From Candidatus Curtissbacteria bacterium RIFCSPLOWO2_02_41_11 (GTDB lineage: Bacteria > Patescibacteriota > Microgenomatia > Curtissbacterales > GWA2-41-24): a DNA stretch of 64,000 nucleotides. The position numbers and the translations under genes are program-made. Positions 6,615 through 56,297 of the stretch are shown here, piece by piece (the first letter of the stretch is position 1; each line of letters begins with the position of its first letter). The notes under the pieces were generated by a model that saw only the letters and a program-made list of their open reading frames with translations, did not search any database and was not told the origin of the DNA. Location of the stretch: NCBI GenBank assembly GCA_001775055.1, contig MFBU01000009.1, forward strand, positions 382-64,381, given 5' to 3'.

Positions 6615-6733
6615 ACCAAGCTTCGCTTGGTAATTTTCAATTTCCAATTTTCAATTTCTAATTTCCAAAGTAATCCACGGTGTCAAGTTGGTATCAACAT
6701 CAACCACGCGAGATGTGTAATCGGTTGTAGGCT

Positions 6734-11100: not shown

Positions 11101-11156
11101 ACTGACAACTGACAACTGACAACTGACAACTGACAACTGACAACTGACAACTGACA
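11101..11156 (+). repeat. 8 perfect tandem copies of heptamer ACTGACA ending 3 nt before the xerC-like ATG
   Basis: Counted directly: 56 nt = 8 x 7. Spurious ORFs 10959..11150 and 10964..11239 are artefacts of this tract. Confidence 0.9.
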
Positions 11157-11159
11157 AAA

Positions 11160-12914: not shown

Positions 12915-15900
12915 TTAATTTTTGAAGGTTACATACTGATTCCAGGGAAGAATTTTGAGATCGGCGGGTTTTTTGAGGGAAATTGCCTTGACAAAAAGCT
13001 GAGCGGCTTGCATGTTGGCAAGTAGCGGTATGCCAAAGTCAATTGATGCTCGGCGGATTAAATAATCATCATCGAACTCTTTTTTAAAGTAAGGATCAAA
13101 GATATTGATGACCAGATCAATCTTTTTGGCCAAAAGAAAGTCCAGGACATTGGGTTTTTGATGTTCGTGAATTTTATAAAGTTTGGTAACATCAATACCG
13201 TGGTTTTTGAAAAATTGGGCGGTGCCGGCCGTGGCATAAATTTTAAGACCCATTTTAAAAAGAGTTTTGGCGGCTTCTTGGAATTTGATCTTGTTTTCTT
13301 CACCAGCCAGGGAGATAAAGACCGATTTTTTGGGTAAGGAGACACCGGTTGCTATTTGCGATTTTAAATAGGCCTCATAGATATCATCACCAAAACAGGC
13401 GACTTCACCGGTTGAGGCCATTTCGACTCGCAAAATCGGATCTGCGCCTTTGATACGGGCGAACGAAAACTGGGGAGCTTTGACCGCGACATAATCTGGT
13501 CTCTGGTCTCTGGTCTCTGGTCTCTGGTCAATGCCTAGTATTGCTTCGGTGGCTAATTTGGCAAAGTTGATGCCGGTGACTTTAGAGACAAAAGGAAGTG
13601 AGCGGCTGGCACGCAAATTGCACTCAATAACCATTACCCGGTTGTTTTCGGCCAAAAATTGGATGTTGAAAGGACCAGTGATGTTAAGTTCCCTAGCAAT
13701 TTTTTGGGCAATTTTTTTGATTTGTTCAATTGTTTGAGTGTAGAGCTTTTGGGCGGGCAAAACCATACTGGAGTCTCCGCTGTGTACGCCGGCATTTTCG
13801 ACGTGTTCTATGATCGCCTGACATAAAACTTTGCCGTTTTTGGCCACAGCATCGATTTCGATTTCTTTGGAATTTTGATGGAACTGAGAAATAACTACAG
13901 GGTATTCTGCGGAAACTTGTGAAGCAGCCAAAAGATAAGCTTCAAGGTCCTGCGGGTTAAAGGCCACATTCATGGCTGCTCCGGAAAGAACATATGATGG
14001 GCGTACTAAAACCGGATAGCCGATTTTTTGGGCAAAGACAATTGCCTCCCCGACATTTTTAAGTTTGGCCCAAACGGGTTGAGCGATATCAAGCTCGTCG
14101 CAAAGCTTGGAAAATTTGCTTCTGTCCTCTGCCCTATCGATTGAAGTGACTTTAGTTCCTAAAATTGCCAAGCCCCTTTGGGTAAGTTTGGTGGCCAGAT
14201 TGTTGGGGGTTTGGCCGCCCATGGAAACAATTAGGCCGCTCGGTTTTTCTTTGTGGTAAATTTCTGTGATTGTCTCTTCGGTTAATTCTTCAAAATAGAG
14301 TTTTTGGGCCATGTCAAAGTCGGTAGAAACAGTTTCGGGGTTACAGTTGATAATGATTGTCGAAAAATTGCAACTTTCGGCTGTTTGGGCACAAGTGACC
14401 GAACACCAGTCAAATTCGACAGAGGAACCAATGCGGTAAGGACCGGAGCCCAAGACGATAACCTTTGACATTTGACCTTTGACATTTGACCTTTGACTTA
14501 CAACATCATCTGATTCTCCATTGTAAGTCAGATAAAGGTAATTAGTCTCGGCCGGGTATTCGGCAGCTAAAGTGTCGATTTGTTTGACGGATGGATGAAT
14601 GTCGAATTTGTGTCGAAGTTGGCGGATTTTGTCTTTCGTTGAACCCGTTAAAGTTGTTAATCGTTTATCGGAAAACCCAAGTTGTTTGGCTAAAAGAAGA
14701 GCATCACGGCTATTAAAAGTATCAGGGGTACCATGAGTTTTTTGTTTTGAGACTTTGATACTTTTTTCAAAATCGCAGATATTCTTAAGTTTGTAAAGGA
14801 AGAATGGATCGATACCGGTGGCTTGGGCAATTTTTTCGACGGCAGTTTTTTGGCGGATAGCGCGGGCGATGGCAAAAATCCGCCAAGGGGTTGGTTTGGC
14901 CCAGGAAACCTTTGGTGCCTTTTCATCCAAAATTCCCTCAAAACCGATATCAAGCATACGCACGGCTTTTTGAATTGCCTCTTCAAATTTTCGACCGACA
15001 GCCATAACTTCGCCAACCGATTGCATCGAGGAGCCGATTTCTGTTTGGCTTTTTAAGAATTTGGCAAGATCCCATCTGGGGAACTTGACGACCAGATAAT
15101 CAAGAGCCGGTTCAAAGCAGGCAATGGTTTTTTTGGTAACCGAGTTTTGAAGATCGGTTAGTGAGTAGCCCAGCGCCAATTTGGCGGCAATATAGGCTAA
15201 GGGATAACCAGTGGCTTTGGAGGCCAATGCCGAGGAGCGGGAAAGACGGGCATTAACTTCGATGATGCGGTAGTCGAGGCTGGAAGTGAGAGATGAGAAG
15301 TGAGAAGCTGGATCCCACTTCGGATTTGGGTTCAGAGCGAATTGGATATTGCATTCGCCGACAATACCCAGGTGTCTAATGACTTTGATAGAAATCTCAC
15401 GAAGCTTGTGATATTCGAAGTTGTTAAGGGTTTGGGAAGGAGCAACGACGATTGATTCGCCCGTGTGGATGCCCATTGGGTCGATATTTTCCATGTTGCA
15501 AACAGTGATGCAGTTGTCAAATTTGTCTCTGACTACTTCATATTCAACCTCCTTCCACTTATCGAGATATTCCTCAATTAAGATTTGGCCAACTTTGGCA
15601 AGAGCCCGAGTGGCAATTTCCACAAGTTGTTTTCGATTTTGAGCCATACCGCTGTCTTGACCGCCTAGTGAAAAGCCGCCTCTTATCATTATCGGGTAGC
15701 CGATTGTGGTGGCGACAGCCAATGCTTGTTTGACGGTTTTAACTGCCTGACTTTGAGGGCACTTCAGGTTAATTTGATCTAAGGTGTTGACAAAAAGTTG
15801 TCGGTCTTCAGTCTTCTCGATTGTTTCAATGGATGTTCCTAATACTTCGACTTGGTATTTTTGAAAAATCCGATCCTTGGCCAGTAATAGACCGCAATTT

Positions 15901-23399: not shown

Positions 23400-25151
23400 A
23401 TGGCTGATTCTGCCCAAGGCGCAAACATTAAGAGAGATATTCAGACTAAAGCAAAACCTTCATTTATCGAAGATGTTTTAGAATTCCGTGGTTTACTGAC
23501 TGCCCAGCAACTTAGCTTTGTTAAGAACGAGGCTAAAAGAAGACAGGAATCTGTTGAGAAAATTTTAACGCAGATGGGTTGGGTAACTGATGAACAGTTA
23601 GCCGCAGCCAAGAGTGACGTACTTGGTGTGCCTTATGTTGATCTTTCGCAGCAGCCAATTTCTCCTGAAGTTCTAGCTTATCTACCTGAAGAGGTGGCCA
23701 GAAGATTTATAGTTATTCCGATTGCCAGGGAAGGCGAAACGTTATCAGTAGCCATGTCAGACCCCCTAGACTTGCAAGTCTTAGAGTTTATCGAGAAAAA
23801 ATCTGGTCTGGCTGTTCGGCCGTATATGGCTACTGTTGGTTCAATTCAAAGGGCGATAGCAGAACAATACAGCCGCGGTCTTTCTTTTGAAGTCGGTGAA
23901 GCTTTAAAAGAAGCGGCGCCGGGACTGACTACGCCTTTGGCAATTCAAACCGGAGTTTCCGGAATTTTGGGTGAAGCTCCGGTTGCCAGGATTGTTTCGA
24001 CACTTCTTGAGTATGGTATTAAAGTCAGAGCCTCTGATATCCACATCGAGCCACTCGAGAATGAAACTAGGATTCGTTATCGAATCGACGGAATTTTGCA
24101 TGAAAAGCTGATTTTACCAAGACGCATTCATGATGCGATAGTTTCCAGAATTAAAATTTTGGGTAATATGAAGATTGACGAAAAACGCTTACCCCAAGAC
24201 GCCCGTTTTAACTTTAAAGTCGGCCAAGAAGAGTTAGATTTGAGGCTTTCAACAATGCCTACCGCCTATGGAGAGAAAGTGGTAATGAGGCTTCTTAAGA
24301 AAACCGGTGGCGTGCCGACACTGCCGGAATTGGGGCTTCGCGGCAGCGCGCTTAAACATTTAGATGAAAATATTGCCAGACCACACGGAATTATTCTGAT
24401 TTGTGGTCCAACCGGTTCGGGAAAAACGACTAGCTTGTATTCGATTCTTTCAAAGTTAAATTCGACAAAAGTTAATATCATGACCTTGGAGGATCCGATT
24501 GAATATCAAATACCGGGGGTTAATCAGGTTCAGGTAAATACTCAGGCGGGATTAAACTTTGCTTCTGGACTGCGCTCATTTTTACGGCAAGACCCTAATA
24601 TTATTATGGTTGGAGAGGTTCGCGATTCTGAAACTACTGATTTGGCTATTCAGGCTGCTCTAACCGGTCATTTAGTTTTTTCGACTCTGCACACTAACGA
24701 TGCCGCCGGAGCTCTTCCCCGACTGTTGGATATGCAGGCAGAACCTTATTTAATTGCTTCAACGGTTACCTGTGTTGCCGGCCAGCGGGTTGTGCGTAGA
24801 GTTTGTGCGGCTTGTAAAATTGCTAAAGCTCCGTCTGAGGAAATATTTATAGAAATTAAAAAAACTTTAGGTGATCTTTATAAATTTGAAAAAAGTAACC
24901 CCCCAACTTTTTTTGTGGGTAAAGGATGCAGGGAGTGTAATAATACCGGCTATTTAGATCGAATTGGTATATTTGAGGTATTGGTTGTTTCAGAAAAAAT
25001 TGCCAGGATGATTCTTACTCGTGAACCGGTCCAAGCAATTGCCAATCAAGCGATCAGCGAAGGCATGATTACGATGAAACAAGACGGTTTTTTGAAAGTG
25101 ATTGAGGGTATAACGACTGTTGAGGAAGTCTTGAGAGTAGCGGAAGAATAA
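23400..25151 (+). CDS. pilB: type IV pilus assembly ATPase PilB (GspE family)
   Basis: Walker A GPTGSGKTTSLYS, Asp and His boxes, tetracysteine CxxC...CxxC. Confidence 0.92.
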   Translation: MADSAQGANIKRDIQTKAKPSFIEDVLEFRGLLTAQQLSFVKNEAKRRQESVEKILTQMGWVTDEQLAAAKSDVLGVPYVDLSQQPISPEVLAYLPEEVARRFIVIPIAREGETLSVAMSDPLDLQVLEFIEKKSGLAVRPYMATVGSIQRAIAEQYSRGLSFEVGEALKEAAPGLTTPLAIQTGVSGILGEAPVARIVSTLLEYGIKVRASDIHIEPLENETRIRYRIDGILHEKLILPRRIHDAIVSRIKILGNMKIDEKRLPQDARFNFKVGQEELDLRLSTMPTAYGEKVVMRLLKKTGGVPTLPELGLRGSALKHLDENIARPHGIILICGPTGSGKTTSLYSILSKLNSTKVNIMTLEDPIEYQIPGVNQVQVNTQAGLNFASGLRSFLRQDPNIIMVGEVRDSETTDLAIQAALTGHLVFSTLHTNDAAGALPRLLDMQAEPYLIASTVTCVAGQRVVRRVCAACKIAKAPSEEIFIEIKKTLGDLYKFEKSNPPTFFVGKGCRECNNTGYLDRIGIFEVLVVSEKIARMILTREPVQAIANQAISEGMITMKQDGFLKVIEGITTVEEVLRVAEE

Positions 25152-25247
25152 GGGTATCACGGGCGCCAAGGGTATCACGAGTACCACAGGCTTAAAACAA
25201 AAAGCTCTTGATACTTTTGGTACATTTGATACCTTTGGTACTCTTAA
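25152..25247. repeat. copy A of a ~95-nt dyad-symmetric intercistronic repeat family (GGGTATCACGAG...AGCTCTTGATAC...GGTAC arms)
   Basis: Shares >60% identity and the same arm order with the copies at 37605, 40886 and 50511. Confidence 0.7.
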
Positions 25248-25254
25248 CATAAAC

Positions 25255-26343: not shown

Positions 26344-27558
26344 ATGTCACTTTACCGTTATACAGCCAAGGATTTAAGCGGCAAAAAGTTTACCGGCGAA
26401 GTCGAAGCAATTGACGAGAAAGCCTTGGTAACCACTCTTCAAGGCGAAGGGCTGGTGCCGATTGAGGTTAGAGAACGCAATGCCCAAGGTTCTATAACTA
26501 TTGAGAAAGTCTTGCCTAAGACTGGCGGAGTTTCTTCCTCTGAAATTGTGGGTTTTACCAGACAGCTTTCGACAATGATTTCAGCAGGTCTTCCTTTAAC
26601 CGATGCCTTGGTAATTTTGGAAAAACAGGCTAAAAATAAGCATTTTGCGCGGGTACTTGCAGAAGTTGTGGCTGATGTCGAAGGCGGTACGTCGCTTTCG
26701 GCGGCTTTTGCCAAACATCCCAGAGTTTTTGACATTATCTATGTGAAACTGGTTGAGGCCGGTGAAACCGGCGGAGTTTTGGATAAGATTTTAAATAAAC
26801 TGGCCGAGTCTTTAGAGAAAGAAAGGGAATTTAAGGCGAAAACCCGGGGCGCTTTTATTTATCCGGCAATTGTGGTTGTGGTTATGATTATCGTAATGAG
26901 TATTATGATGATTTTTGTAATCCCCAAACTGACCAGTCTTTACACTGAAATCGGAGCAGCCCTGCCGCTTCCAACGAGAATTTTAATTGTCATGTCTAAT
27001 TTCATGAGGTCGTTCTGGTGGCTTTTAATAATGATGGTAATAGCCGGTACTTATAGCTTTAGGACATATTCCAAAACAGTCAGGGGCGGCCAGATTGTCT
27101 CAAAATTTGTTTTATGGTTGCCCATTTGGGGAAAAATCCGCAAAACCTTAATTTTAGCTCAATTCACGCGCACGCTTGGACTTTTAATCGGTAGTGGAAT
27201 CCCAATTATTACTGCCCTAAAAGTGGTGGCCGATCTTTTGGCCGCTCCTACTTATAAGGAAGGTATTGAATTTGCAATTTCCCGGGTGGAGCGTGGTGCG
27301 CCGCTTTATCAACCGCTGGCTGCCAGTCCCGATTTTCCGCCGATTATCGGGCAAATGATCAGAGTTGGTGAGGAAACAGGTAAGATGGACGAGGTCTTGA
27401 TTAGACTTTCTGTTTACTTTGAAGCGGAAAGCGAGAATTTGATTCGAAATTTAACAACGGCACTCGAGCCGGTAATTTTAGTGATTTTGGGTGCGGGCGT
27501 TGGTGTTTTAGTGCTTTCTATTATCCTGCCGATCTACAATTTGACAGCGCAATTCTAA
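26344..27558 (+). CDS. pilC: type IV pilus platform protein PilC (GspF family)
   Basis: Two GspF repeats and three transmembrane segments. Confidence 0.9.
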   Translation: MSLYRYTAKDLSGKKFTGEVEAIDEKALVTTLQGEGLVPIEVRERNAQGSITIEKVLPKTGGVSSSEIVGFTRQLSTMISAGLPLTDALVILEKQAKNKHFARVLAEVVADVEGGTSLSAAFAKHPRVFDIIYVKLVEAGETGGVLDKILNKLAESLEKEREFKAKTRGAFIYPAIVVVVMIIVMSIMMIFVIPKLTSLYTEIGAALPLPTRILIVMSNFMRSFWWLLIMMVIAGTYSFRTYSKTVRGGQIVSKFVLWLPIWGKIRKTLILAQFTRTLGLLIGSGIPIITALKVVADLLAAPTYKEGIEFAISRVERGAPLYQPLAASPDFPPIIGQMIRVGEETGKMDEVLIRLSVYFEAESENLIRNLTTALEPVILVILGAGVGVLVLSIILPIYNLTAQF

Positions 27559-27580
27559 CTGGAAACTAGAAACTATAAAC

Positions 27581-27946
27581 TTGGAACCAGACACAGTAAA
27601 TTTTAGATTCTTAAATTTTAAGGTCTACAAAGACGCAAAAAAATTTTATCATGAGATTGTTAGGATAACTGCTAACTTTCCTAGGCAATATTGGGAGTTG
27701 GGAGACCAGATGAGAAGAAGCGCTCTTTCTGTAATTCTTAATCTAGCAGAGGGTTCAGCCAAGAAGTCAGACAGAGATTTTAACCGTTACATTAAAAATA
27801 GTTTAGGGTCAATAAATGAGTGCGCAGCGGGTATTGACGTGGCTTTTGGCGAAAAACTTGTAAATGAGGAGGTTTTTAAAAATCTAATGATTAAAGCGTC
27901 AGAAATCGCAAATCAATTAGGCGGGTTCTCAAAATCTTTGAGGTAA
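27581..27946 (+). CDS. four-helix-bundle protein (23S rRNA IVS protein / Avd-like family)
   Basis: FRFLNFKVYKDAKKFYHEIVRITANFP...RRSALSVILNLAEGSAK...SLGSINEC fits the TIGR02436/Avd pattern. TTG start. Confidence 0.75.
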   Translation: MEPDTVNFRFLNFKVYKDAKKFYHEIVRITANFPRQYWELGDQMRRSALSVILNLAEGSAKKSDRDFNRYIKNSLGSINECAAGIDVAFGEKLVNEEVFKNLMIKASEIANQLGGFSKSLR

Positions 27947-28124
27947 CTCGAAACATTAAACCTTAAACTTGAAACCATAAACTGAACAGAGACTAAGTGG
28001 TGGTAGCTTGTGAAGTATTTCATGTTTCCAGTTTATTGTTTCCTGTTTCACGTTAGGTATCTTGACAACAGTTAACTTATCCCCAATACTTAAATAGAAG
28101 AGGAAATTTGAAAAGTTTATCCTC

Positions 28125-32618: not shown

Positions 32619-32647
32619 CAACTGACAACTGACATTTGACAAAAAAT

Positions 32648-37604: not shown

Positions 37605-37700
37605 GGTTTAAGGGTATCACGAGTTGTCAGAGTACCACGAGTATCAGGAGCTCTCTTGACTTTTCAGCTCGTGGTACTTTTGATACTCTTGGTACCCATA
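37605..37700. repeat. copy B of the dyad-symmetric intercistronic repeat; overlaps the last 11 codons of nusB
   Basis: GGGTATCACGAGTTGTCAGAGTACCACGAG...AGCTCGTGGTACTTTTGATACTCTTGGTACCC. Confidence 0.7.
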
Positions 37701-38065
37701 ATACTCTTTGATTTGACTATTGAGCCTAAAACGCCATTAACAAAGCTACCGGATGCTTCAGAACCATATTGTTTGGCGATTTCGACTGCTTCATCAATGA
37801 CAACTTTATACGGTTCTTTGTTTTTTTTGAACAAGAGTTCAAAGATAGCAAGCCTAAGCGTTGCCAGGTCAATTGGGGCGATTTGGTTAAGTGGCCAGGT
37901 AGGTGCGTGTTGGGTAATTAGCTTGTCGATTGCTTTTTGTTTGGTAATAATCTTTGCGACCATTGAGGTTTTGGCAATTTTCAAATTTGATCTAAAGTTT
38001 TTTTCAAACAAAGCTTTAACTGTTTGAACTCTCATTTTATGTCTTGGATCACTTTTTCTTTTCAT
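37664..38065 (-). CDS. nusB: transcription antitermination factor NusB
   Basis: RHKMRVQTVKALF...VIDEAVEIAKQYGSEASGSFVNGVL. Confidence 0.88.
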   Translation of the reverse strand: MKRKSDPRHKMRVQTVKALFEKNFRSNLKIAKTSMVAKIITKQKAIDKLITQHAPTWPLNQIAPIDLATLRLAIFELLFKKNKEPYKVVIDEAVEIAKQYGSEASGSFVNGVLGSIVKSKSIMGTKSIKSTTS

Positions 38066-38243: not shown

Positions 38244-38405
38244 ATAAATAATTTAAAATTTAAAATTTAAAATTTTTTCTACCACCTACTAACTATCTAA
38301 CTACAAACTAATCTGGGGTATCAAGGAGTCAAGGGATCAAAAAATTGCTTTTGGCTCTTTGACTTTTCGATACCGGTTGGCATTATATCAGAAATAGCTT
38401 TGTCG

Positions 38406-38777
38406 TCAACTTCTTCGTCTTGATTTCCTTTTTGCCCTACGGATTGCTTCATAACTAGTACCTCCGCCGATAGTTCTGGTGCCTCCGACAGGTATTTTCT
38501 TTGGCGGGAGGAGCGGTTTGATCCCCGTGGGTACTAAGGATACAGCTTTTATGATACCTCTTTTGGAATCGTGAATTGTTGTTTCTGTCAATTGCATTCG
38601 GCATTCCGGTTGAAAACAAGATCCGGGATTAGGGATAATCATTTCGATTTCTCTAAACAGAAGCGGATCAGGAGAAATACAATCTTGTGGATTGTTGACT
38701 GGTTTTGATTCTCGACCCCTTTGAGGATATATTCGTCGCGTGTATAATTGACGTTCGTTTCTCATTTTTCCAAACAA
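38406..38777 (-). CDS. hypothetical protein upstream of rpmF (possibly a degenerate YceD/DUF177-like protein)
   Basis: Position only. Composition is odd (Gly/Arg-rich C-terminus), so this may not be a real gene. Confidence 0.3.
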   Translation of the reverse strand: MFGKMRNERQLYTRRIYPQRGRESKPVNNPQDCISPDPLLFREIEMIIPNPGSCFQPECRMQLTETTIHDSKRGIIKAVSLVPTGIKPLLPPKKIPVGGTRTIGGGTSYEAIRRAKRKSRRRS

Positions 38778-38845: not shown

Positions 38846-40885
38846 TCAATTTGGTTGGGCGAGTTCGGATTGGAAACGGGAGAGTTTATTAGCGAGTAAG
38901 GGGTATTTGGTAAGCTGCCAATCTTCTTCGATAAGTTTTTTGGCCTCACTTTGGGCCTGGCTGATCATTTTTTGATCGGAAAGATCGGCGATTTTGAGAT
39001 TGACAAAGCCGGATTGTTTAAGGCCGAAAACTTCGCCAGGGCCGCGCATTTTAAGATCGATTTCAGCAAGTTCAAAACCAACGTGGATTTTTTCCATGCT
39101 TTTTAAGCGCCTGAGAGAGTTTTCGGCGCGTGAATCGGTAAAGAGAAGACAATATGACTGATATTTACCCCTACCGACTCTTCCGCGCAACTGATGGAGT
39201 TGGGCCAGCCCAAAGCGTTCTGCTGATTCAATCATCATAACAACCGCATTGGGTACATCAATACCGACTTCAACAACGGGTGTGGCAACTAGAATGTCGA
39301 TCTTACCCTCTCTGAACTCTTTGATGATTTTCTCTTTCTCTTTTGATTTGAGACGACCATGCAAAAGTCCTAGTTTAATTTTTGAAGAGAACTTAGTCTT
39401 TAACTTTTCAAATTCATCGGTGGCAGCTTTCACAGAAAGCATTGTTTCTGAAGGTTCAACAAAAGGGGTAATGATAAAAGCCTGTCGTTTGTTTGCAATT
39501 TGCTTTTCGATAAATTTATAGGCGTCGGCTCTTTTGTAATTTGGGACAACATATGTTGCGATTTTTTGACGGCCGGCGGGCATTTCATCAAGAACAGAAA
39601 GATCAAGATCTCCATACAAGGTTAAGGCGAGTGTTCTGGGAATAGGTGTGGCTGTCATTGTTAGAAGATGAGGGGTTAGATCTTTTGCTTGACCAAGAAA
39701 AAGTTTGGCCCTTTGGGCAACTCCAAAGCGATGTTGTTCGTCGACAACGACTAAGCCGATTTGTCTTTCATCTTTATAGCTTAAGAGAAGGGCATGAGTA
39801 CCACAGGTGATGTGACCTTTGATTTTTTTACTGCCTGTCCAGATACCGACTTTCATGCCTAAAGGCGAAAGAATATCCTCAAGGGTTTTTTGGTGCTGGA
39901 ATGCCAGTATTTCCGTAGGTGCGGCCAAAAGCGTATCAAAACCGTTTAAATAAGCGACATAAGCGGCAATGGCGGCAACCACTGTTTTTCCAGAGCCGAC
40001 GTCTCCTTCCAAAAGGCGATTAGTTGGAATTTCCCTTTGCATATCGGAAAGAATTTCTTTGGTTGCTTTTAACTGGGCTGAAGTTAGCTTAAAGGGAAGT
40101 TTTTTTACAAAATTATTGATTTTTGGTATATCAATTTTCATTTTGTGAGCAATTTTAGTCTCTTGCCGATCTTTTTTTCGCATCAGTGCCAAAAACTGAA
40201 GTAAAAAAAGCTCGTCAAAAGAAAGCCTGTGTCTTGCCCTTTCAACCTCTTGATAATTTTTAGGAAAGTGGATTTTATAAAGTGCTTCTTTTAAATCCAA
40301 AAATTTTTGGTGAGGTACGATCTTGTTGGGTATAAAATCCTTGACTGATTTTAGGTAAGAGGGAAAAATTTGAGCGATCTTGGCACGGATCCATTTTGAG
40401 GAGACTCCTTCGGTTTCCGGATAAATTGGAACCAATCGACCGGTGTGCAAGGTTGAATTTTCCATTTTCAAATTTGAATGTCTGATTATTTCATATGCAG
40501 GTGAGATGAGTTGAAGATGGTTGCCCTTAATCTCAACTTTTCCAGAGAGCGATATTTGCATGCCGGATTTGATGTTTTTGGTTAAAAAAGGTTGATTGAA
40601 CCAGATAATATCAATAGCCCCTGATTGATCGGCAACAGTAGCAGTAGTTACGAATTTGCCTCTTGGAGTTCTGATATTTTTTATTTGCCAGACGACTCCA
40701 TGGACACTTAGTTTTTCGCCAGGTGCTACATTTTGGATTTTTTCAATCTTTGAAAAATCGTCGTAACGAAACGGTAAATGATAGATTAAATCCTCAACTG
40801 TTTTAATCTCAAGCCTTCTTAATTTTTGGGAAAAGTACCTACCGATGCCTGGTAATTTTTCAATTGGAGTTTGTGGATTCATCAT
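38846..40885 (-). CDS. recG: ATP-dependent DNA helicase RecG
   Basis: Wedge domain N-terminus; helicase motif I GDVGSGKTVVA, DEQHRFGV, and motif VI. Confidence 0.93.
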   Translation of the reverse strand: MMNPQTPIEKLPGIGRYFSQKLRRLEIKTVEDLIYHLPFRYDDFSKIEKIQNVAPGEKLSVHGVVWQIKNIRTPRGKFVTTATVADQSGAIDIIWFNQPFLTKNIKSGMQISLSGKVEIKGNHLQLISPAYEIIRHSNLKMENSTLHTGRLVPIYPETEGVSSKWIRAKIAQIFPSYLKSVKDFIPNKIVPHQKFLDLKEALYKIHFPKNYQEVERARHRLSFDELFLLQFLALMRKKDRQETKIAHKMKIDIPKINNFVKKLPFKLTSAQLKATKEILSDMQREIPTNRLLEGDVGSGKTVVAAIAAYVAYLNGFDTLLAAPTEILAFQHQKTLEDILSPLGMKVGIWTGSKKIKGHITCGTHALLLSYKDERQIGLVVVDEQHRFGVAQRAKLFLGQAKDLTPHLLTMTATPIPRTLALTLYGDLDLSVLDEMPAGRQKIATYVVPNYKRADAYKFIEKQIANKRQAFIITPFVEPSETMLSVKAATDEFEKLKTKFSSKIKLGLLHGRLKSKEKEKIIKEFREGKIDILVATPVVEVGIDVPNAVVMMIESAERFGLAQLHQLRGRVGRGKYQSYCLLFTDSRAENSLRRLKSMEKIHVGFELAEIDLKMRGPGEVFGLKQSGFVNLKIADLSDQKMISQAQSEAKKLIEEDWQLTKYPLLANKLSRFQSELAQPN

Positions 40886-40985
40886 GATAAGAGTATCACG
40901 AGTTTCAAGTGAATCAAGAGCATCAAAAGCTTTTTGATTAATTATAGCCAGTGGTACCCGTGGTGTTTTTGGAGTTCGTATTGCT
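40886..40985. repeat. copy C of the dyad-symmetric intercistronic repeat
   Basis: AGAGTATCACGAG...AGCTTTTTGAT...GGTACCCGTGGTG. Coordinates are ±10 because of the display inconsistency. Confidence 0.6.
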
Positions 40986-40990
40986 TTTAT

Positions 40991-41107
40991 TTAATTAAAT
41001 CCGTACAAAAGATAGATAGCAAATTGGCCAATAATAAAGCTTAAGCCGGCAATAACAATAATGGCAATCCAGATTTTTTTAAGATAAGAGCGTTTGAATA
41101 ATTTCAT
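40991..41107 (-). CDS. 38-aa single-TM peptide overlapping the tyrS stop by ATGA
   Basis: Hand translation gives MKLFKRSYLKKIWIAIIVIAGLSFIIGQFAIYLLYGFN. Coordinates are approximate (±10) because the display line 41101 carries only 50 nt. Confidence 0.35.
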   Translation of the reverse strand: MKLFKRSYLKKIWIAIIVIAGLSFIIGQFAIYLLYGFN

Positions 41108-43463: not shown

Positions 43464-43510
43464 AGCTAAATTGTGCCTTATAGTTTATCACGGGTGTCAA
43501 GAAATGCAAA

Positions 43511-43569
43511 ATCCGAAGGTGTCAAGCTACTTCACCCTTGGGGTGAATTAGGTTTACACCTGCGGATTA
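43511..43569. repeat. REP-like imperfect palindrome, left flank of the RAYT
   Basis: ATCCGAAGGTGTCAAGCTACTTCACCCTTGGGGTGAATTAGGTTTACACCTGCGGAT. Terminal arms are inverted, with a central CACCCTTGGGGTG palindrome. Confidence 0.75.
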
Positions 43570-44214
43570 TTTAGGTAAATCAAGTGTTTGATGCTTGATT
43601 CTTTCGAGCTCCTTTCCGTAATTTTCTTGATCAAGGACGAATTGTTTATACTTTTGTGATGATTTAAATTGTTTGACGATTATGTCTTTTGAGCAAACTG
43701 AGGTTTTGTTTATACCAATGTACTCCAAATAAGAGGACAGTGGGTATAATTCTAAATTGTCTGTTAAATAACTGACAAGCGGATTAAGATGAATGTATCT
43801 TGACAGGTGAACAAGTTGTTCATTAGTTTCAACGAGGACCGATTTAAACTCCCCTTGCAGTATGGGTCCTGCCCTTTCATTTTTGGTGTTAAAGTATTTG
43901 GTGTAGCTATTGCTAATCTTGCTGGTAAATTCCGTGATACCGCCATTAACTTTTTGCTGAAGTAGAAAATGGAAATGATTAGGCATTAGACAGTAGCAGA
44001 CTAATTCAACAATTTTATTGTGTGTATCCAACTTATTATTATCAGGGTTAAAAATAGAGAATTTTGGCTTGGGTCCTTTAAGCTGATAATAAAGAAATGT
44101 TTTGATGAATCTTTTGTAGTCCCATTTGTCATTGAATATTGGCATATGAGCCACGCCTCTATTGAAGATATGGTAAAAATGGTTATTGACGAAAGGAATA
44201 ATCCTTGATGGCAT
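43567..44214 (-). CDS. IS200/IS605-family Y1 transposase (REP-associated tyrosine transposase, RAYT-like)
   Basis: HUH motif in CLMPNHFHFLL; catalytic-Tyr region SRYIHLNPL. Size 215 aa. Flanked by REP-like palindromes. Confidence 0.75.
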   Translation of the reverse strand: MPSRIIPFVNNHFYHIFNRGVAHMPIFNDKWDYKRFIKTFLYYQLKGPKPKFSIFNPDNNKLDTHNKIVELVCYCLMPNHFHFLLQQKVNGGITEFTSKISNSYTKYFNTKNERAGPILQGEFKSVLVETNEQLVHLSRYIHLNPLVSYLTDNLELYPLSSYLEYIGINKTSVCSKDIIVKQFKSSQKYKQFVLDQENYGKELERIKHQTLDLPK

Positions 44215-44247
44215 TGTTTTTAGGATTTGAGGCTAATAAATCATATA

Positions 44248-44310
44248 AATCCGCAGGTGTCAAGTTGAATCACCCTTGGGGTGGATTCCGTTGGCACCTT
44301 GGGCAGATTC
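44248..44310. repeat. REP-like imperfect palindrome, right flank of the RAYT
   Basis: ATCCGCAGGTGTCAAGTTGAATCACCCTTGGGGTGGATTCCGTTGGCACCTTGGGCAGATTC, ~80% identical to the left copy. Confidence 0.75.
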
Positions 44311-49039: not shown

Positions 49040-50061
49040 TAAAATTGTTCTAAGAATCTTATGTCGTTTTGATATAAAAGCCTGATATCGCCGATTCCGG
49101 TTTTTATGGCAATCGTGCGTTCAATACCCCAACCGAAAGCAAAACCTGTATATTTATGAGGATTAATGTTGCCGGCTTCAAGGACTTTCGGATGGACCAT
49201 GCCGGCTCCTCCTAACTCGACCCAACCGGATTTACAAAAACGACAGCCAGATCCTTGGCAGACTCCGCAAGTAACATCTACTTCAAATGACGGTTCAGTG
49301 AAACGGAAATAATGCGGTCTAAGACGCATCTGGCGTTTTGGCCCGAAAAATTTTGCGGTGAAATAATTAAGAGTACCCTTGAGATTAGCAATGGTGATGT
49401 ATTCATCAATAAAAAGCCCTTCGAATTGATGAAACATCGGTGTATGAGAAACATCAATTTGTCTCCTGTAGCAACGGGCGATATTAAGCATTCTAATAGG
49501 CGGTTTTTTTAACTTTTCCATTTCCCTTACTTGACCGTTAGAGGTATGGGGGGTTAAGACTTGACTGCCAAAATGAGGTTTGGGTGCAGATTTTATGAAA
49601 AAGGTTTCCCAATCGTCTCTGGCTGGATGATTTTTGGGCATGTTTAAAGATTCAAAAGCATACCAGTCCCAATCCACTTCCGGGTAACTCTCAAGAGAAA
49701 AGCCGAGTTTAGAAAAAATGGCAACTATTTCGTCAATTGCTTGGGAAATTAGATGAAGATGGCCTAATTTTAATTTTTTGCCGGGAGCAGTTATGTCGAT
49801 AAATTCCTTCGGCCTTTTCTTTTTGAGAAAGTTGTGTCTTTGTTCAAATGTTTTCTCTATTTCCTTTTTAGCTTCGTTGAGAAGTTGGCCTATTTTGGGC
49901 TTTTTTGATTTGGGTATTGAGGAGAGTTGTTTGGTAAGATTTGTGAATGTTCCACTTTTACCGAAAATTTCAAGGTATATTTTTTCTAGATCGGCAAGGA
50001 CACTTGCTGAGTTAATACCTGTACGGGCATGTGTTGCTAACTTTTTTATTTCTTTATCCAT
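49039..50061 (-). CDS. pheS: phenylalanyl-tRNA synthetase alpha subunit
   Basis: HPARDDWETFF and class II motifs 2 and 3 (FRFTEPSFEVD, GFAFGWGIERT). Confidence 0.92.
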   Translation of the reverse strand: MDKEIKKLATHARTGINSASVLADLEKIYLEIFGKSGTFTNLTKQLSSIPKSKKPKIGQLLNEAKKEIEKTFEQRHNFLKKKRPKEFIDITAPGKKLKLGHLHLISQAIDEIVAIFSKLGFSLESYPEVDWDWYAFESLNMPKNHPARDDWETFFIKSAPKPHFGSQVLTPHTSNGQVREMEKLKKPPIRMLNIARCYRRQIDVSHTPMFHQFEGLFIDEYITIANLKGTLNYFTAKFFGPKRQMRLRPHYFRFTEPSFEVDVTCGVCQGSGCRFCKSGWVELGGAGMVHPKVLEAGNINPHKYTGFAFGWGIERTIAIKTGIGDIRLLYQNDIRFLEQF

Positions 50062-50164
50062 GGGGAAATTTTAACACAAAAATACCTCTCGAACTTAAAA
50101 AATGCTTTAAGAACGAGAGGCGAAATGATTTATATCAATTGAAAATTTTTTTGTCAACTCCGCA

Positions 50165-50506
50165 CTAGCTAACTTTTTTGACAATTTCATCAAAAGCTTG
50201 CGGGTCTTCGATGGCAATTTGAGAAAGAATTTTACGGTCCAGTTCTATTTTTTTGGATTTAAGCTTGTTAATGAATTGACTGTAAGAAAGATTGTGGGGT
50301 GTAAGCGCACCGTTGATTCTGGTAATCCAAAGAGACCTATTTGTGCGTTTTTTTTCTTTTCGACCGCGGTAGGCATCGACTCCGGCATGAATGACTGCTT
50401 CTTTGGCGAGTTTTATAAGTTTTGATCTGCCACCACGATAACCTTTGGCATGAGCTAAAAGCTTTTTATGTCTTTTGTGAGTGGTTACTCCTCGTTTGAC
50501 GCGCAT
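50165..50506 (-). CDS. rplT: 50S ribosomal protein L20
   Basis: MRVKRGVTTHKRHKKLLAHAKGYRG. Confidence 0.93.
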   Translation of the reverse strand: MRVKRGVTTHKRHKKLLAHAKGYRGGRSKLIKLAKEAVIHAGVDAYRGRKEKKRTNRSLWITRINGALTPHNLSYSQFINKLKSKKIELDRKILSQIAIEDPQAFDEIVKKVS

Positions 50507-50510
50507 AATG

Positions 50511-50608
50511 GTAAGAGTACCATGGGAATCAAGGGTATCAAGAGTATCATGAGCTTTTTGATTTATAGCTCTTGGTACCCGTGGTACTCTTGGAACCCGT
50601 GATACTTT
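50511..50608. repeat. copy D of the dyad-symmetric intercistronic repeat, filling the rpmI–rplT spacer
   Basis: AGAGTACCATGGG...GGGTATCAAGAGTATCATGAGC...AGCTCTTGGTACCCGTGGTACTCTTGG; long imperfect hairpin. Confidence 0.75.
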
Positions 50609-50610
50609 TT

Positions 50611-50805
50611 CTAATCATAGGGCATTAGTCTTTCAATTCTTTTCTTTTCCGGTTTTGAAATGTAGGCAATTCGTTTGTATCGCACCTTGGCGCTTTTGGT
50701 TTTTGCGGCTTTGAGATGACCGGCCATTTGGCGTCTTCTTAAAATTTTGCCGCTTTTTGTAATTTTAAAGCGTTTGGCTGCTGCTTTCTTGGTTTTTTGT
50801 TTCAT
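50611..50805 (-). CDS. rpmI: 50S ribosomal protein L35
   Basis: MKQKTKKAAAKRFKITKSGKI. Confidence 0.92.
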   Translation of the reverse strand: MKQKTKKAAAKRFKITKSGKILRRRQMAGHLKAAKTKSAKVRYKRIAYISKPEKKRIERLMPYD

Positions 50806-50846
50806 ATTCGAACTTTAAACTGTAAACTTTAAACTTGAAACTAATT

Positions 50847-51419
50847 TTATGTTGCAGGTTTATTGTTTCCGGTTTCTGGTTGTTTTGAGTGAGTTCTTAC
50901 TGGTTTGATTATAGTGACAAACCTTCTTCCTTCGAATTTTGCTTCTCTTTCCGTTACGGCTATATCTGAAAGCTCTCTTAGAATTCTTTCCAAAAGTTTT
51001 GGCCCGAATTCAGTATGAGCCATCTGTCTTCCCATAAAGACTATTGATATTTTAACCAGATCGCCTACAGAAAGAAATTTTTTAACTCTTTCCAGCGCGG
51101 TTTGTAAATCATGCTCGCCTATAAACGGCGAAAAACGAACTTCTTTAAGTTCTGCCTGCTTGGTGTGTTTTCTGGCTTCTTTTTCCTTTTTTTCTTCTAA
51201 ATATCTGAATTTTTTAAAATCGACTATTTTGACGACCGGTGGCTTGGCGTTTGATGCTATTTCAACTAAATCCAAATTTATTTCTTGAGCTTTTTTTAAA
51301 GCTTCAGGAAGCGATAAAATTCCAATTTGTTTATGTTCTTGGTCGATGACCCGAACTTGATTTGCCCTAATTTGGTGATTTATTCTAAATTGTTTCTTGA
51401 CGGCCAGCCTCCTAATAAT
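50847..51419 (-). CDS. infC: translation initiation factor IF-3, probably with a non-AUG (AUU/AUC) start
   Basis: The track ORF starts at an internal TTG (MDLVEIASNAKPPVVKIVDFKKF). The frame stays open upstream and encodes the IF3 N-domain (...RINHQIRANQVRVIDQEHKQIGILSLPEALKKAQEINLDLVE) with no in-frame ATG. Candidate ATT at 51419/51416, ATC at 51431. 5' end uncertain. Confidence 0.7.
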   Translation of the reverse strand: MIRRLAVKKQFRINHQIRANQVRVIDQEHKQIGILSLPEALKKAQEINLDLVEIASNAKPPVVKIVDFKKFRYLEEKKEKEARKHTKQAELKEVRFSPFIGEHDLQTALERVKKFLSVGDLVKISIVFMGRQMAHTEFGPKLLERILRELSDIAVTEREAKFEGRRFVTIIKPVRTHSKQPETGNNKPAT

Positions 51420-55452: not shown

Positions 55453-56297
55453 AGAATTCCGATTACCTCCTTAAATAAAGGTTTTGACCTCAGAAGTTCA
55501 TTTTTAGCAAGTTGGGCAAAGCTTGAAATGTCTTTAAGTTCGTCCCCAGACGCTGTTTGCTCTTTGGTTTTTTCAAGTAATTCTTTTGCTTTTGTCAGGT
55601 AATTTTGGGTTTTAGCCTTGATATTTGTGATTTCCGAGATCCAGTTGGCAAGGATCGATTGGTTTTGGTCTTTTTCAATTTTTGATGTGATAATTTTGTC
55701 CAAATCTCGGGCGAGTTTGTTGAAATCGGCAATTGCCGACTGTGCTTCAATTACCTCGAAAGTAGCCAAAATTTTATTGATTTTTAGATTAAATTCTTTG
55801 TCACGGTGGCTGCGAAGATCAGTTGCCAGATCGGGTAACTGCTCAAGAGTTTTGGCATCTTTAACTTTTTTTCGGTGATTGTCAAAAAAGGCAATTTCCT
55901 CATCAATAATTTGATTGATATGATCTTTTGAGATATCGCTATTTTGCCAACCGAGGCTGTTGCCGTTTTCATTAACTAAAAATAAATAGGCGTGATAAAG
56001 ATCGTCGATTTTTAAAAGGTAATCACTGGTTGCAAGATAGGCATTATTTTTGGCAGTTGCCGTCTGAAAAGTTAGATAACTTGAGCGAGCATTTATATAC
56101 TTATTTTGTGCTTCTCGATACTTAGTGAACTGGAAAGTATAGTCGTTTTGAGCTTTATCAAGCGCAGTCAAAGGCACAGGTGACTGCGCCAGTGAATAGT
56201 TAATAGTCAATAGTGAATAGATTGCGAGTAGTATAAAAAGTTTGATAAATGTATGGACTATTTTGTTTTTGAAATTAGAAATTTGAAGAGTGGGCAT
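55449..56297 (-). CDS. hypothetical secreted/membrane-anchored coiled-coil protein
   Basis: N-terminal signal/anchor FIKLFILLAIYSLLTINYSLA. Confidence 0.5.
   Translation of the reverse strand: MPTLQISNFKNKIVHTFIKLFILLAIYSLLTINYSLAQSPVPLTALDKAQNDYTFQFTKYREAQNKYINARSSYLTFQTATAKNNAYLATSDYLLKIDDLYHAYLFLVNENGNSLGWQNSDISKDHINQIIDEEIAFFDNHRKKVKDAKTLEQLPDLATDLRSHRDKEFNLKINKILATFEVIEAQSAIADFNKLARDLDKIITSKIEKDQNQSILANWISEITNIKAKTQNYLTKAKELLEKTKEQTASGDELKDISSFAQLAKNELLRSKPLFKEVIGIL

What the first reader, a model, noticed from the sequence alone, without database searches (positions are those of the whole stretch)
50511..50608. A ~95-nt dyad-symmetric element recurs at four intercistronic sites and shares motifs with the RAYT-flanking REPs
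Copies lie at 25152-25247 (pilB|pilT), 37605-37700 (ACP-like|nusB), 40886-40985 (recG|small ORF) and 50511-50608 (rpmI|rplT). All have the same order of arms (GGGTATCACGAG / AGTACCACGAG ... AGCTCTTGAT ... GGTACCCGTGGTAC) and can fold into long imperfect hairpins. They sit inside operons between co-directional genes, so they are transcribed. The TATCACGGG and GTCAAG motifs recur in the REPs flanking the RAYT, which suggests these are the REP family that the transposase mobilises. In the rpmI–rplT spacer such a structure could also affect the known L20-mediated operon regulation.
Basis: seen in the sequence. Interest (0 to 1): 0.65.

Follow-up and report, generated by a model that had tools for sequence, protein, structure and literature searches.

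The report
Hairpin repeat element invading operons and genes
The four ~100-base repeats are real copies of one palindromic element family in a Curtissbacteria (candidate phyla radiation) genome, and they appear to be gene-less versions of a hairpin element whose loop carries a small "23S rRNA intervening-sequence" four-helix-bundle protein gene, not repeats moved by the nearby RAYT transposase; relatives carry the same element in frame inside essential genes such as carB, obg and leuS.

Summary
The repeat is real. Four full copies (25148-25250, 37606-37711, 40884-40992, 50509-50612) recover each other at E 1e-14 to 5e-23. A fifth, partial copy lies in frame inside carB (14693-14763).

Each arm is four tandem 9-nt units (GTAYCANGR) around an A-rich loop. 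The pilB|pilT copy is inverted relative to the other three, so every copy points the same way as its host transcript (8 of 8 independent loci once relatives are included).

The RAYT/REP link is not supported. The RAYT-flanking REPs are a different sequence, and the shared 9-mer and 6-mer are at chance level.

Three further results:
- **In-frame insertions.** Related genomes carry full copies in frame in carB, obg and leuS, always in the same reading frame. They add roughly 26-34 residues that solved homologues lack.
- **Link to a protein gene.** In five Microgenomates loci (four genomic contexts, four candidate lineages), the same nonamer arms flank a conserved PF05635/TIGR02436 gene that sits where the loop would be. 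On one contig the gene-less and gene-bearing copies share 43/46 and 36/43 arm bases.
- **A sister family.** The window's own PF05635 gene has heptamer arms, as do four cyanobacterial plasmid homologues.

Best reading: a gene-less derivative of an IVS-like hairpin element, behaving like Rickettsia palindromic elements. How it moves is unknown.

The parts
25148..25250 (+). Full copy between pilB (stop TAA 25149-25151, inside the element's 5' end) and pilT (ATG 25255). Sense orientation is the + strand.
   Evidence: sense 83.8 vs antisense 59.2 bits. Sense RNA fold z -5.9.
37606..37711 (-). Full copy between nusB and the ACP-like gene. The nusB stop TGA (37664-37666) lies in the loop, so the 5' arm encodes the NusB tail KSIMGTKSIKSTTS. 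The ACP-like gene's ATG follows the 3' arm directly.
   Evidence: Conserved at the same site in L014 (95%) and L028 (87%), while the flanking CDS are 65-68% identical.
40884..40992 (-). Full but decayed copy between a conserved 38-aa small ORF (40994-41108) and recG (ATG 40885).
   Evidence: Sense RNA fold z -1.3. The orthologous spacer is 11 nt in L010, a heptamer array in L009, and other heptamers in L028.
50509..50612 (-). Full copy (the flagged one). It fills the whole spacer from the rpmI stop (50611-50613) to the rplT ATG (50506-50504). There is no Shine-Dalgarno-like sequence before the rplT ATG.
   Evidence: Identical in six assemblies of the same population. The site holds a different element or no spacer in relatives.
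14693..14763 (-). Partial copy (last 5' unit, loop, 3' arm) in frame inside carB, residues ~473-495 (EKSIKVSKQKTHGTPDTFNSRDA). It no longer forms a hairpin.
   Evidence: nhmmer E about 1e-7. Sense-oriented alignment. Translation and comparison with L025 carB, which is 9 residues shorter here. Fold z -0.6.
38303..38375 (-). Possible short relative: a three-unit nonamer hairpin (GTATCGAAA AGTCAAAGA GCCAAAAGC / inverse) at the 5' end of the rpmF leader, just downstream of a TTGACG-16-TATAAT promoter-like site.
   Evidence: Fold z -4.8. Conserved in L028. The family profile scores it only at E about 2.5, so membership is uncertain.
27557..28054 (+). Sister element. A PF05635/TIGR02436 four-helix-bundle gene (27581-27946) is flanked by heptamer (AAACNNN) arrays at 27557-27587 and 27945-27989, with the inverted array at 28017-28054.
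   Evidence: Pfam E 7.9e-25. TIGR02436 E 2.4e-23. Repeats.
50811..50881 (.). Gene-less heptamer dyad between infC and rpmI, 82-84% identical to the arms next to the window's PF05635 gene. The infC C-terminal codons and stop lie in one arm.
   Evidence: Families D4 and D18..

Best explanation
The ~100-nt element is the gene-less (MITE-like) form of an intervening-sequence-like hairpin element. The full form has the same two arms, each about four tandem 9-nt units GTAYCANGR in inverted orientation. In place of the short A-rich loop it carries a ~121-aa four-helix-bundle gene (PF05635 '23S rRNA intervening sequence protein' / TIGR02436, Avd-like).

Copies have been dispersed into transcribed DNA of Curtissbacteria and always point the way of the host transcript. 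I infer that they persist because they do little harm, for two reasons:
- Between cistrons, the hairpin fills the stop-to-start spacer. Its base brings the upstream stop and the downstream start together, so expression of a downstream gene that lacks its own Shine-Dalgarno sequence can stay coupled.
- Inside genes, the 9-nt (three-codon) arms are stop-free in the frame used. They are read through as a roughly 26-34-residue [K/T][S/G][I/T]x4 - K-rich loop - [F/L/R][D/G]Tx4 insertion.

Shown: family membership, sense-only orientation, in-frame insertions relative to solved homologues, and co-occurrence of the arms with the PF05635 gene.

Inferred: that the gene-less copies derive from the gene-bearing form, that the protein acts on the arms, that the elements are neutral or selfish, and the translational-coupling role. 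The mobility mechanism is unknown.
For: - **Family.** Leave-one-out E 1e-14 to 5e-23. Pattern hits 4/4 window copies and 0 of 100 shuffles. Ten copies from six genomes align at 76% mean column identity.
- **Orientation.** Sense beats antisense by 10-31 bits for all 10 copies, which represent 8 independent loci.
- **Insertion, not ancestral sequence.** rpmI and rplT overlap in L010. The smORF-recG spacer is 11 nt in L010.
- **In-frame copies.** L025/L026 carB: a 31-aa stretch is aligned to no residue of CPS1. L024 obg: 26 and 52 aa where B. subtilis Obg has 2 and 6. L024 leuS. All coding occurrences use one frame.
- **PF05635 link.** L023 arms at 13017-13067 and 13439-13490 flank a PF05635 gene (E 6e-24). 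Homologues at 69-75% identity in Curtiss-, Roizman-, Davies- and Shapirobacteria sit in four different gene contexts. All are flanked by inverted nonamer arms that the element profile detects at E 1e-5 to 1e-11 for at least one arm of every locus.
- **Same-contig pair.** On L023 the gene-less and gene-bearing copies share 43/46 and 36/43 arm bases.
- **Sister families.** The window's PF05635 gene has heptamer arms and a gene-less copy of them at 50811-50881. Four of four cyanobacterial plasmid homologues are flanked by heptamer arrays, and the opposing arrays are inverted complements in two of them.
- **Literature.** The Coxiella 23S rRNA IVS has a terminal-inverted-repeat stem, an S23p ORF in the loop and tandem heptamers before the ORF (PMC4990558). 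PF05635 ORFs and short ORF-less inserts occur in CPR rRNA genes (PMC11270868).
Against: - No catalytic mobility function is known for PF05635 proteins, and no transposase or reverse transcriptase is linked to the element here.
- No consistent target-site duplication was found.
- The PF05635 gene sits in a single, stable context within a species, and two candidate classes share a context. Recent mobility of the gene-bearing form is therefore not shown.
- I could not show that the window's own genome has a nonamer-type PF05635 gene.
- The nusB|acp copy is far more conserved (87%) than its flanking genes (65-68%). That fits function or homogenisation better than neutral junk.
- Sense-only orientation is not explained by stop codons, because the antisense frame A0 is open as often as the sense frame.
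- The alternative that the gene homes into pre-existing hairpin loops is not excluded.
Confidence: 0.6

Rival explanations
1. One reading: the elements are the REP family of the neighbouring RAYT (Y1 transposase, 43567-44214) and are mobilised by it as single-stranded hairpins.
For: A RAYT-like gene is present (PF01797 E 4.6e-5; NF047646 44 bits) and is flanked by two hairpin repeats. One nonamer-like 9-mer, TATCACGGG, lies 20 nt from a REP.
Against: The flanking REPs (AATCCGNAGGTGTCAAG...CACCCTTGGGGTG...) share no significant similarity with the element (profile E 1-7; blastn-short finds only the two REPs). The shared 9-mer and 6-mer are at chance level. The RAYT score is below the curated cut-off (44 vs 80 bits). 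The element's orientation follows transcription on both strands of a window whose GC skew keeps one sign, not the replication strand expected for Y1 transposases. The arms travel with a PF05635 gene in relatives.
Confidence: 0.03
2. The hairpins are host cis-regulatory RNA structures selected at each site. Candidate roles are RNase III processing sites, mRNA stabilisers, or devices for translational coupling between cistrons. On this view they are not selfish insertions.
For: All copies are sense-oriented. They fill stop-to-start spacers of genes that lack Shine-Dalgarno sequences. The nusB|acp copy is 87% conserved against 65-68% for its flanking genes. A related hairpin sits at the 5' end of the rpmF leader and is conserved.
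Against: The same sequence occurs in frame inside carB, obg and leuS, where cleavage would destroy the mRNA. Presence is unstable: at rpmI|rplT and recG, close relatives have other repeats or no spacer. There are no compensatory double changes in 29 consensus pairs across 10 copies. The recG copy no longer folds in the sense RNA. Wobble pairs favour the + strand whatever the gene direction.
Confidence: 0.15
3. The nonamer hairpins are an independent repeat family. The PF05635 gene is a separate homing cassette that inserts specifically into their loops, as IVS elements sit at the tips of rRNA helices. On this view the gene-less copies are targets, not derivatives.
For: In L023 the gene cassette replaces the loop exactly, between GGGCT and AGCTC. 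Classical PF05635-bearing IVSs lie at the tips of rRNA helices (PMC4990558; PMC11270868). The gene is single-copy whereas gene-less hairpins are several per genome.
Against: Arms and gene co-occur in every one of five nonamer-type loci across four candidate lineages. Other PF05635 subfamilies have their own arm units. This is equally expected if arm and gene move together. No empty-loop/filled-loop pair at an orthologous site was found.
Confidence: 0.15
4. The copies arose independently at each site by local slippage of short tandem repeats in a genome prone to 7- and 9-nt arrays, with no movement of a unit element.
For: The window holds 29 period-7 arrays, strongly enriched in its ~9% non-coding DNA. 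Orthologous sites carry arrays with different units in different genomes.
Against: The copies share the order of alternating units, the loop sequence (TAAAnCAAAAAGCTC) and the ends over ~100 nt at unrelated loci and in different genomes. Convergence by slippage cannot give E 1e-14 to 1e-23 matches.
Confidence: 0.04

Closest known systems
23S rRNA intervening sequences (IVS) carrying an S23p / PF05635 ORF (Coxiella, Leptospira, Xanthomonas; also short ORF-less IVSs of Salmonella and of CPR rRNA genes)
   Same: A stem made of terminal inverted repeats. A PF05635 four-helix-bundle ORF in the loop of the long forms, and ~100-nt ORF-less forms. Short tandem repeats next to the ORF (GACAGAT x3 in Coxiella; PMC4990558). 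Sporadic distribution. PF05635 ORFs are known in CPR rRNA inserts (PMC11270868).
   Different: The elements here lie in messenger-RNA regions (operon spacers, a 5' leader and protein-coding sequence), not in rRNA helices 9/25/45. The whole arm is a 9-nt tandem array. In-frame copies are evidently read through rather than excised. RNase III cleavage is untested.
Rickettsia palindromic elements (RPE)
   Same: Palindromic repeats of ~100-150 bp found both between genes and in frame inside unrelated housekeeping genes. They add a conserved peptide without destroying the host ORF (PMC10969869). No known mobilising enzyme.
   Different: A different phylum and sequence family. The arms here are built from tandem nonamers. 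All copies are sense-oriented. A cognate gene-bearing form with a PF05635 gene exists, which to my knowledge has not been reported for RPEs.
REP/BIME elements with RAYT (REPtrons)
   Same: Short, dispersed, hairpin-forming repeats, mostly between co-directional genes. A RAYT-like gene with its own flanking REPs is present in the window.
   Different: REPs are 20-40 nt, extragenic, and match the repeats that flank their RAYT. This element is ~100 nt, also occurs inside ORFs, and is unrelated to the RAYT-flanking repeats.
Bacterial MITEs (Correia/NEMIS, ERIC, BOX, RUP)
   Same: Non-autonomous, ~100-150 bp, inverted-repeat ends, co-transcribed with neighbouring genes, occasionally fused in frame to ORFs (PMC10969869).
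   Different: No target-site duplication is evident. The related long form encodes a four-helix-bundle protein rather than a transposase. The arms are internally periodic.
Heptamer tandem repeats of cyanobacteria (STRR) and TAACTGA repeats of Beggiatoaceae
   Same: Short-period tandem arrays of a few units, concentrated in intergenic DNA and often ending just before start codons (PMC4679880). The window is full of such arrays. Heptamer arrays flank PF05635 genes here and on four cyanobacterial plasmids.
   Different: The flagged element has a 9-nt period, is a fixed dyad with a conserved loop, and recurs as a whole unit. No link between these heptamer repeats and PF05635 genes turned up in the papers I searched.

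Membership tests
REP / RAYT system | The dispersed repeats have the same sequence as the repeats that flank the RAYT gene in inverted orientation. | tested here: not met
   The RAYT-flanking hairpins at 43505-43572 and 44243-44306 match only each other. The element profile scores that region at E 1-7.
REP / RAYT system | Short (20-40 nt) extragenic imperfect palindrome. | tested here: not met
   The element is ~100 nt with 36-nt arms. Copies lie inside carB, obg, leuS and the nusB 3' end.
REP / RAYT system | A bona fide RAYT (REP-associated tyrosine transposase) in the genome. | tested here: inconclusive
   The gene at 43567-44214 matches PF01797 at E 4.6e-5 (24 bits, cut-off 23) and NF047646 at 44 bits (cut-off 80).
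MITE | Short, non-coding, multi-copy element with terminal inverted repeats. | tested here: met
   ~100 nt. Five copies in 64 kb and further copies in five other genomes. The whole element is a dyad.
MITE | Target-site duplication flanking each copy. | tested here: inconclusive
   Reading the flanks of the aligned copies gives hints only: TATG on both sides at rpmI|rplT and AAAYCA at nusB|acp. There is no consistent duplication across eight loci, and no clean filled/empty pair in close relatives.
MITE | A cognate autonomous element with the same ends that encodes a transposase. | tested here: not met
   The long form with the same arms encodes a PF05635 four-helix-bundle protein, not a known transposase.
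Rickettsia palindromic elements | Palindromic repeat inserted in frame in unrelated protein-coding genes, as well as between genes, leaving the ORFs intact. | tested here: met
   carB (L025/L026), obg and leuS (L024), and carB and the nusB tail (window). The ORFs continue and align to solved homologues on both sides of the insert.
Rickettsia palindromic elements | Sequence membership in an RPE family, in Rickettsiales. | not tested
   No RPE sequences were compared. The host is a Curtissbacteria, so only the behaviour is claimed, not membership.
23S rRNA intervening sequences | Located in 23S (or 16S) rRNA helices. | tested here: not met
   All copies lie in mRNA regions. The window has no rRNA gene. 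The rRNA genes of these genomes were not available.
23S rRNA intervening sequences | Stem of terminal inverted repeats enclosing, in the long forms, a PF05635 ORF. | tested here: met
   Five nonamer-type loci, the window's heptamer-type locus and a second type in L031.
23S rRNA intervening sequences | Excision from the transcript by RNase III without re-ligation. | not testable with these tools
   This needs transcript-end mapping. The in-frame, stop-free state of the coding copies argues that they are not excised there.
Intrinsic terminator / L20 leader | G+C-rich hairpin followed by a U tract, or a match to the L20 leader RNA family. | tested here: not met
   No terminator-like call on any copy in either strand. 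No Rfam match at E<=1 in 50040-50900.

The most novel reading that the evidence does not exclude
PF05635 / TIGR02436 four-helix-bundle proteins (relatives of the DGR accessory protein Avd) may be the trans-acting partners of a widespread, unrecognised class of hairpin elements whose arms are short tandem repeats. The class would unite classical rRNA intervening sequences, the cyanobacterial STRR-type heptamer arrays, and the nonamer and heptamer dyads of CPR bacteria.

On this reading each protein subfamily recognises its own repeat unit. The elements would spread by a transcription- or RNA-linked route, which would explain sense-only insertion, including insertion into essential coding sequences.
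Probability: 0.25. Interest if true: 0.85.

Novelty: new variant of a known kind. Interest (0 to 1): 0.72.

Why it matters
- **A partner for an orphan protein family.** PF05635/TIGR02436 is a large family with no known function. This would give it a concrete sequence partner and a testable role: binding or mobilising hairpins made of tandem 7- or 9-nt units.
- **A possible origin for heptamer repeats.** The heptamer repeats of cyanobacteria have been known for decades without an explanation. This offers one.
- **Selfish DNA in minimal genomes.** The tiny, gene-dense genomes of CPR bacteria would be shown to tolerate palindromic insertions inside essential proteins (CarB, Obg, LeuRS, NusB), as Rickettsia does. 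That would be a source of new surface loops.
- **Annotation.** Such insertions explain odd extensions and inserts in CPR proteins, and unusually long intercistronic spacers.

Tried and rejected
- **Covariation.** RNAalifold on 10 copies gave 29 pairs but no compensatory double change. There is thus no independent support for selection on pairing. The Y/R position of GTAYCA is even anti-correlated between arms (UG 5, CA 3, CG 2).
- **Strand asymmetry of folding.** The + strand folds better in all four window copies regardless of gene direction. I read this as G+T mutational skew, not RNA selection.
- **Stop-codon explanation for sense orientation.** Rejected. The antisense frame A0 is open in 6/10 copies against 4/10 for the sense frame.
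- **'Pentamer binds five units' idea.** Rejected. Heptamer arrays have about 4-5 units but nonamer arms about 4. What stays constant is an arm length of ~35 nt.
- **Target-site duplications.** No consistent pattern.
- **Genome-wide census.** The window's genome is not among the species representatives. The strict pattern gave 1 true and 2 chance hits there, 15 loci in metagenomes of which 12 are true copies, and none in viral contigs.
- **Peptide searches for further in-frame copies.**
  - The exhaustive search with the 34-aa conceptual peptide returned two weak, low-identity hits.
  - Short queries and 50% clustering make this uninformative.
- **Terminator and promoter scans.** Nothing on the elements.
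- **Rfam.** Only four tRNAs in the window.
- **TIGR arrays and CRISPR.** Considered only on architecture, from my own knowledge: a single dyad is not an array of many interspaced units. Not pursued.
- **Literature.** Searches found no paper linking PF05635 genes to tandem-repeat hairpins outside rRNA. The library is incomplete.

Full report
**1. Source and observation**

The L20 protein of the window is identical to one in GCA_000996905.1 and in several Rifle groundwater metagenomes. Its closest named homologues are from Candidatus Curtissbacteria, in the Microgenomates of the candidate phyla radiation.

- They align almost without gaps at 75% mean column identity.
- When any one copy is left out of the profile, it is recovered in the 64-kb window at E 1e-14 to 5e-23.
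- A pattern spanning the last 5' unit, the loop and the first 3' unit hits exactly these four sites and none of 100 shuffles.
- The profile also finds a fifth, partial copy inside the carB ORF (14693-14763, E about 1e-7).

The 'small ORF' upstream of recG is a conserved 38-residue membrane peptide.

**2. Anatomy**

Each arm consists of four tandem 9-nt units, GTAYCA plus a purine-rich triplet (TRF period 9). The other arm is their inverse. The loop reads TAAAnCAAAAAGCTC on one strand.

The dyad symmetry hid an important point. The pilB|pilT copy matches a model built from the other three better when reverse-complemented (75 vs 50 bits). With ten copies from six genomes, and orthologues excluded from the training set, every copy scores 10-31 bits higher in the orientation of its host transcript. 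That makes 8 of 8 independent loci. The chance is about 0.008 once the first locus sets the reference.

The window's GC skew keeps one sign throughout, while the copies lie on both strands. The orientation therefore follows transcription, not replication.

Folding of the sense RNA:

| Copy | z-score |
|---|---|
| pilB\|pilT | -5.9 |
| nusB\|acp | -5.8 |
| rpmI\|rplT | -4.7 |
| smORF\|recG (decayed) | -1.3 |
| carB partial copy | -0.6 |

**3. Position relative to genes**

The element fills the whole spacer at each intercistronic site:
- The pilB stop is the first three bases of the element.
- The rpmI stop abuts the element.
- The downstream ATG follows the 3' arm within 0-8 nt.
- No Shine-Dalgarno-like sequence lies between.
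- At nusB the stop codon is in the loop, so the 5' arm encodes the last residues of NusB (KSIMGTKSIKSTTS). This arrangement is conserved in L014 and L028.

No promoter-like or terminator-like site is called on any copy, and no Rfam family matches.

**4. Orthologous sites in relatives**

| Site | Relative | What is there |
|---|---|---|
| rpmI\|rplT | L010 | The two genes overlap by 11 nt, no spacer |
| rpmI\|rplT | L007/L008 (L20 96-98% identical) | A different, heptamer-based hairpin |
| rpmI\|rplT | L009 | A third, different sequence |
| smORF\|recG | L010 | 11-nt spacer |
| smORF\|recG | L009 | Heptamer array ACTTTNC x4.5 |
| smORF\|recG | L028 | Other heptamers |

The element is therefore an insertion, and these junctions are occupied by different periodic repeats in different lineages.

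The nusB|acp copy behaves differently. It is 87% identical between the window and L028, while the flanking nusB and acp coding sequences are 65% and 68% identical.

**5. In-frame copies**

A scan of metagenome contigs found full copies inside genes of related organisms:
- **carB.** In L025, and independently assembled in L026, a full copy lies in carB: QFALNPKS[SKSITGTKSTMGTTGLKEKAFDTFGTFDTPDTFL]DYRIIEVNA. About 31 of these residues face no residue of human CPS1, and the E. coli CarB match likewise breaks at this point.
- **obg.** In L024, one full copy and one 3'-arm fragment lie in obg. They give 26 and 52 residues where B. subtilis Obg has 2 and 6.
- **leuS.** Another full copy lies in leuS of L024.

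All coding occurrences, including the window's carB fragment and the NusB tail, use the same frame, AAG AGT ATC. One of the other two sense frames is closed by TGA in the 3' arm. The equivalent antisense frame is open at least as often as the sense frame, so stop codons do not explain the sense-only orientation.

This behaviour matches what is described for Rickettsia palindromic elements (PMC10969869).

**6. The partner gene**

On contig L023 the 5' arm (13017-13067) and the 3' arm (13439-13490) are 370 nt apart. They enclose a 121-residue ORF that sits exactly where the loop would be. The ORF is a PF05635 '23S rRNA intervening sequence protein' (E 6e-24), TIGR02436 four-helix-bundle, with a weaker match to the DGR protein Avd.

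Homologues at 69-75% identity occur in Curtissbacteria, Roizmanbacteria, Daviesbacteria and Shapirobacteria. I fetched five further loci lying in three additional gene contexts. Every one is flanked by inverted nonamer arms. In each locus the element profile detects at least one arm at E 1e-5 to 1e-11 in 42.6 kb.

On L023 itself, a gene-less copy 12 kb away shares 43/46 and 36/43 arm bases with the gene-bearing copy.

Other subfamilies have other arm units:
- The window's own PF05635 gene (27581-27946, E 8e-25) is flanked by AAACNNN heptamer arrays. A gene-less dyad 82-84% identical to them lies between infC and rpmI.
- A second PF05635 gene in L031 has TTGATAA-type arms.
- All four tblastn hits of the window's protein on plasmids are cyanobacterial, and all four genes are flanked by heptamer arrays.
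- In Nostoc edaphicum the gene lies between nrdB and nrdA, with AGTAGGG x8 on one side and CCCTACT x5 on the other. In the surrounding 25 kb almost all heptamer arrays are of that unit, including a gene-less dyad.

The classical Coxiella IVS has the same parts: a terminal inverted-repeat stem, an S23p ORF in the loop, and tandem heptamers before the ORF. It is cut out by RNase III (PMC4990558). PF05635 ORFs and short ORF-less inserts occur in CPR rRNA genes (PMC11270868).

**7. The RAYT hypothesis**

The gene at 43567-44214 is a distant RAYT-like Y1 transposase. It is flanked by two ~60-nt hairpin repeats, but these match only each other. The element profile does not detect them (E 1-7). The shared TATCACGGG (one occurrence nearby) and GTCAAG (42 occurrences in the window) are what chance gives. 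I therefore reject the REP/RAYT assignment.

**8. Mechanism, shown and inferred**

Shown:
- One homologous family.
- Sense-only orientation.
- Insertion relative to relatives and to solved homologues.
- One reading frame in coding copies.
- Constant association of the arms with a conserved four-helix-bundle gene.

Inferred:
- The ~100-nt copies are deletion derivatives or satellites of the gene-bearing form.
- The protein recognises the unit sequence. This would explain why GTAYCANGR is conserved across candidate classes, and why the nusB copy is more conserved than its neighbours.
- Intercistronic copies are tolerated because the hairpin base juxtaposes stop and start.
- Coding copies are tolerated as surface loops.

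Unknown:
- How copies are made and inserted.
- Why they are sense-only.
- Why the arms are periodic.

**9. Verdict**

The specific interpretation is wrong. The element works like an RPE, and in architecture it is an IVS-like hairpin element outside rRNA. It is not a REP.

I found no paper linking PF05635 genes with tandem-repeat hairpins outside rRNA, or with in-frame insertions in CPR. The library is incomplete, so I rate it a new variant of a known kind.

Noticed in passing
window, 29 sites (e.g. 6632-6668, 7958-7990, 11100-11157, 13495-13529, 14464-14497, 15283-15307, 30541-30571, 31076-31146, 56191-56220): Period-7 tandem arrays are everywhere. 18 of 29 lie in or at the edge of the ~9% non-coding DNA, and 11 lie inside ORFs. 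Arrays of 3.3 or more units are 24-37 nt long, apart from one of 58 nt. Three lie in frame in carB (for example TCTGGTC x5 = DQRPETRDQRPD). L025 carB has arrays at the same sites with different units, and with the same length at the one site compared directly.
   Followed up: partly
window 11100-11157 and 32613-32645: AACTGAC x8.3 ends 2 nt before the ATG at 11160. A related array ends just before the next start codon. This resembles the TAACTGA direct repeats that end just upstream of start codons in Beggiatoaceae (PMC4679880).
   Followed up: no
window 40994-41108 (-): Conserved 38-residue ORF MKLFKRSYLKKIWIAIIVIAGLSFIIGQFAIYLLYGFN between tyrS and recG. It is 80-84% identical in nucleotides to L009/L010, where neighbouring genes are ~70% identical.
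   Followed up: partly
window 50062-50164 (-): Between rplT and pheS there is a TTGACA-17-GATATAAAT promoter-like site. It is followed at once by a strong hairpin (CCTCTCGTTCTTAAAGCATTTTTTAAGTTCGAGAGG) and a U tract. The arrangement is conserved in L007, L009 and L010 and has no Rfam match. It may be a pheS leader/attenuator or a small RNA.
   Followed up: partly
window 38250-38409 (-): The rpmF leader starts with the best promoter-like site of the region (TTGACG-16-TATAAT with an extended TG). A three-unit nonamer hairpin follows, then TAGTTAG-type heptamers and AATTTAA x3.7, then the ATG. The whole leader is conserved in L028.
   Followed up: partly
window 43505-44306: RAYT-like Y1 transposase gene flanked by two ~60-nt hairpin repeats, with only these two copies in the window. 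A 12-mer of the repeat (GGTGTCAAGTTG) recurs at 6679.
   Followed up: partly
window 50847-50881 (-) and 37667-37711 (-): The last ~11 codons and the stop of infC lie in one arm of a heptamer dyad, just as the NusB tail lies in the nonamer 5' arm. C-terminal extensions of housekeeping proteins here are supplied by repeat arms.
   Followed up: partly
window, the four full copies: The + strand folds 7-13 kcal/mol better than the - strand in every copy, whatever the gene direction. The G-T wobbles follow the G+T-rich strand (positive GC skew throughout).
   Followed up: partly
L035-L038, L053 (cyanobacterial plasmids): Four-helix-bundle genes are wedged between operon partners (cas6|cas4 in Pseudanabaena, nrdB|nrdA in Nostoc edaphicum, two toxin-secretion genes in Calothrix). 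They are flanked by heptamer arrays. Pseudanabaena has AAAGCTA x15 and AAAGCCA x10.
   Followed up: partly
L043 1115-3684: One assembly shows a tandem duplication of the unit [269-aa ORF + PF05635 gene]. The nine other places for the same protein have one copy in the same context.
   Followed up: no
L024 3700-3900: The second insertion in obg (52 residues) combines AAACT-type heptamers with a nonamer 3' arm, so different repeat types can be stacked at one site.
   Followed up: no
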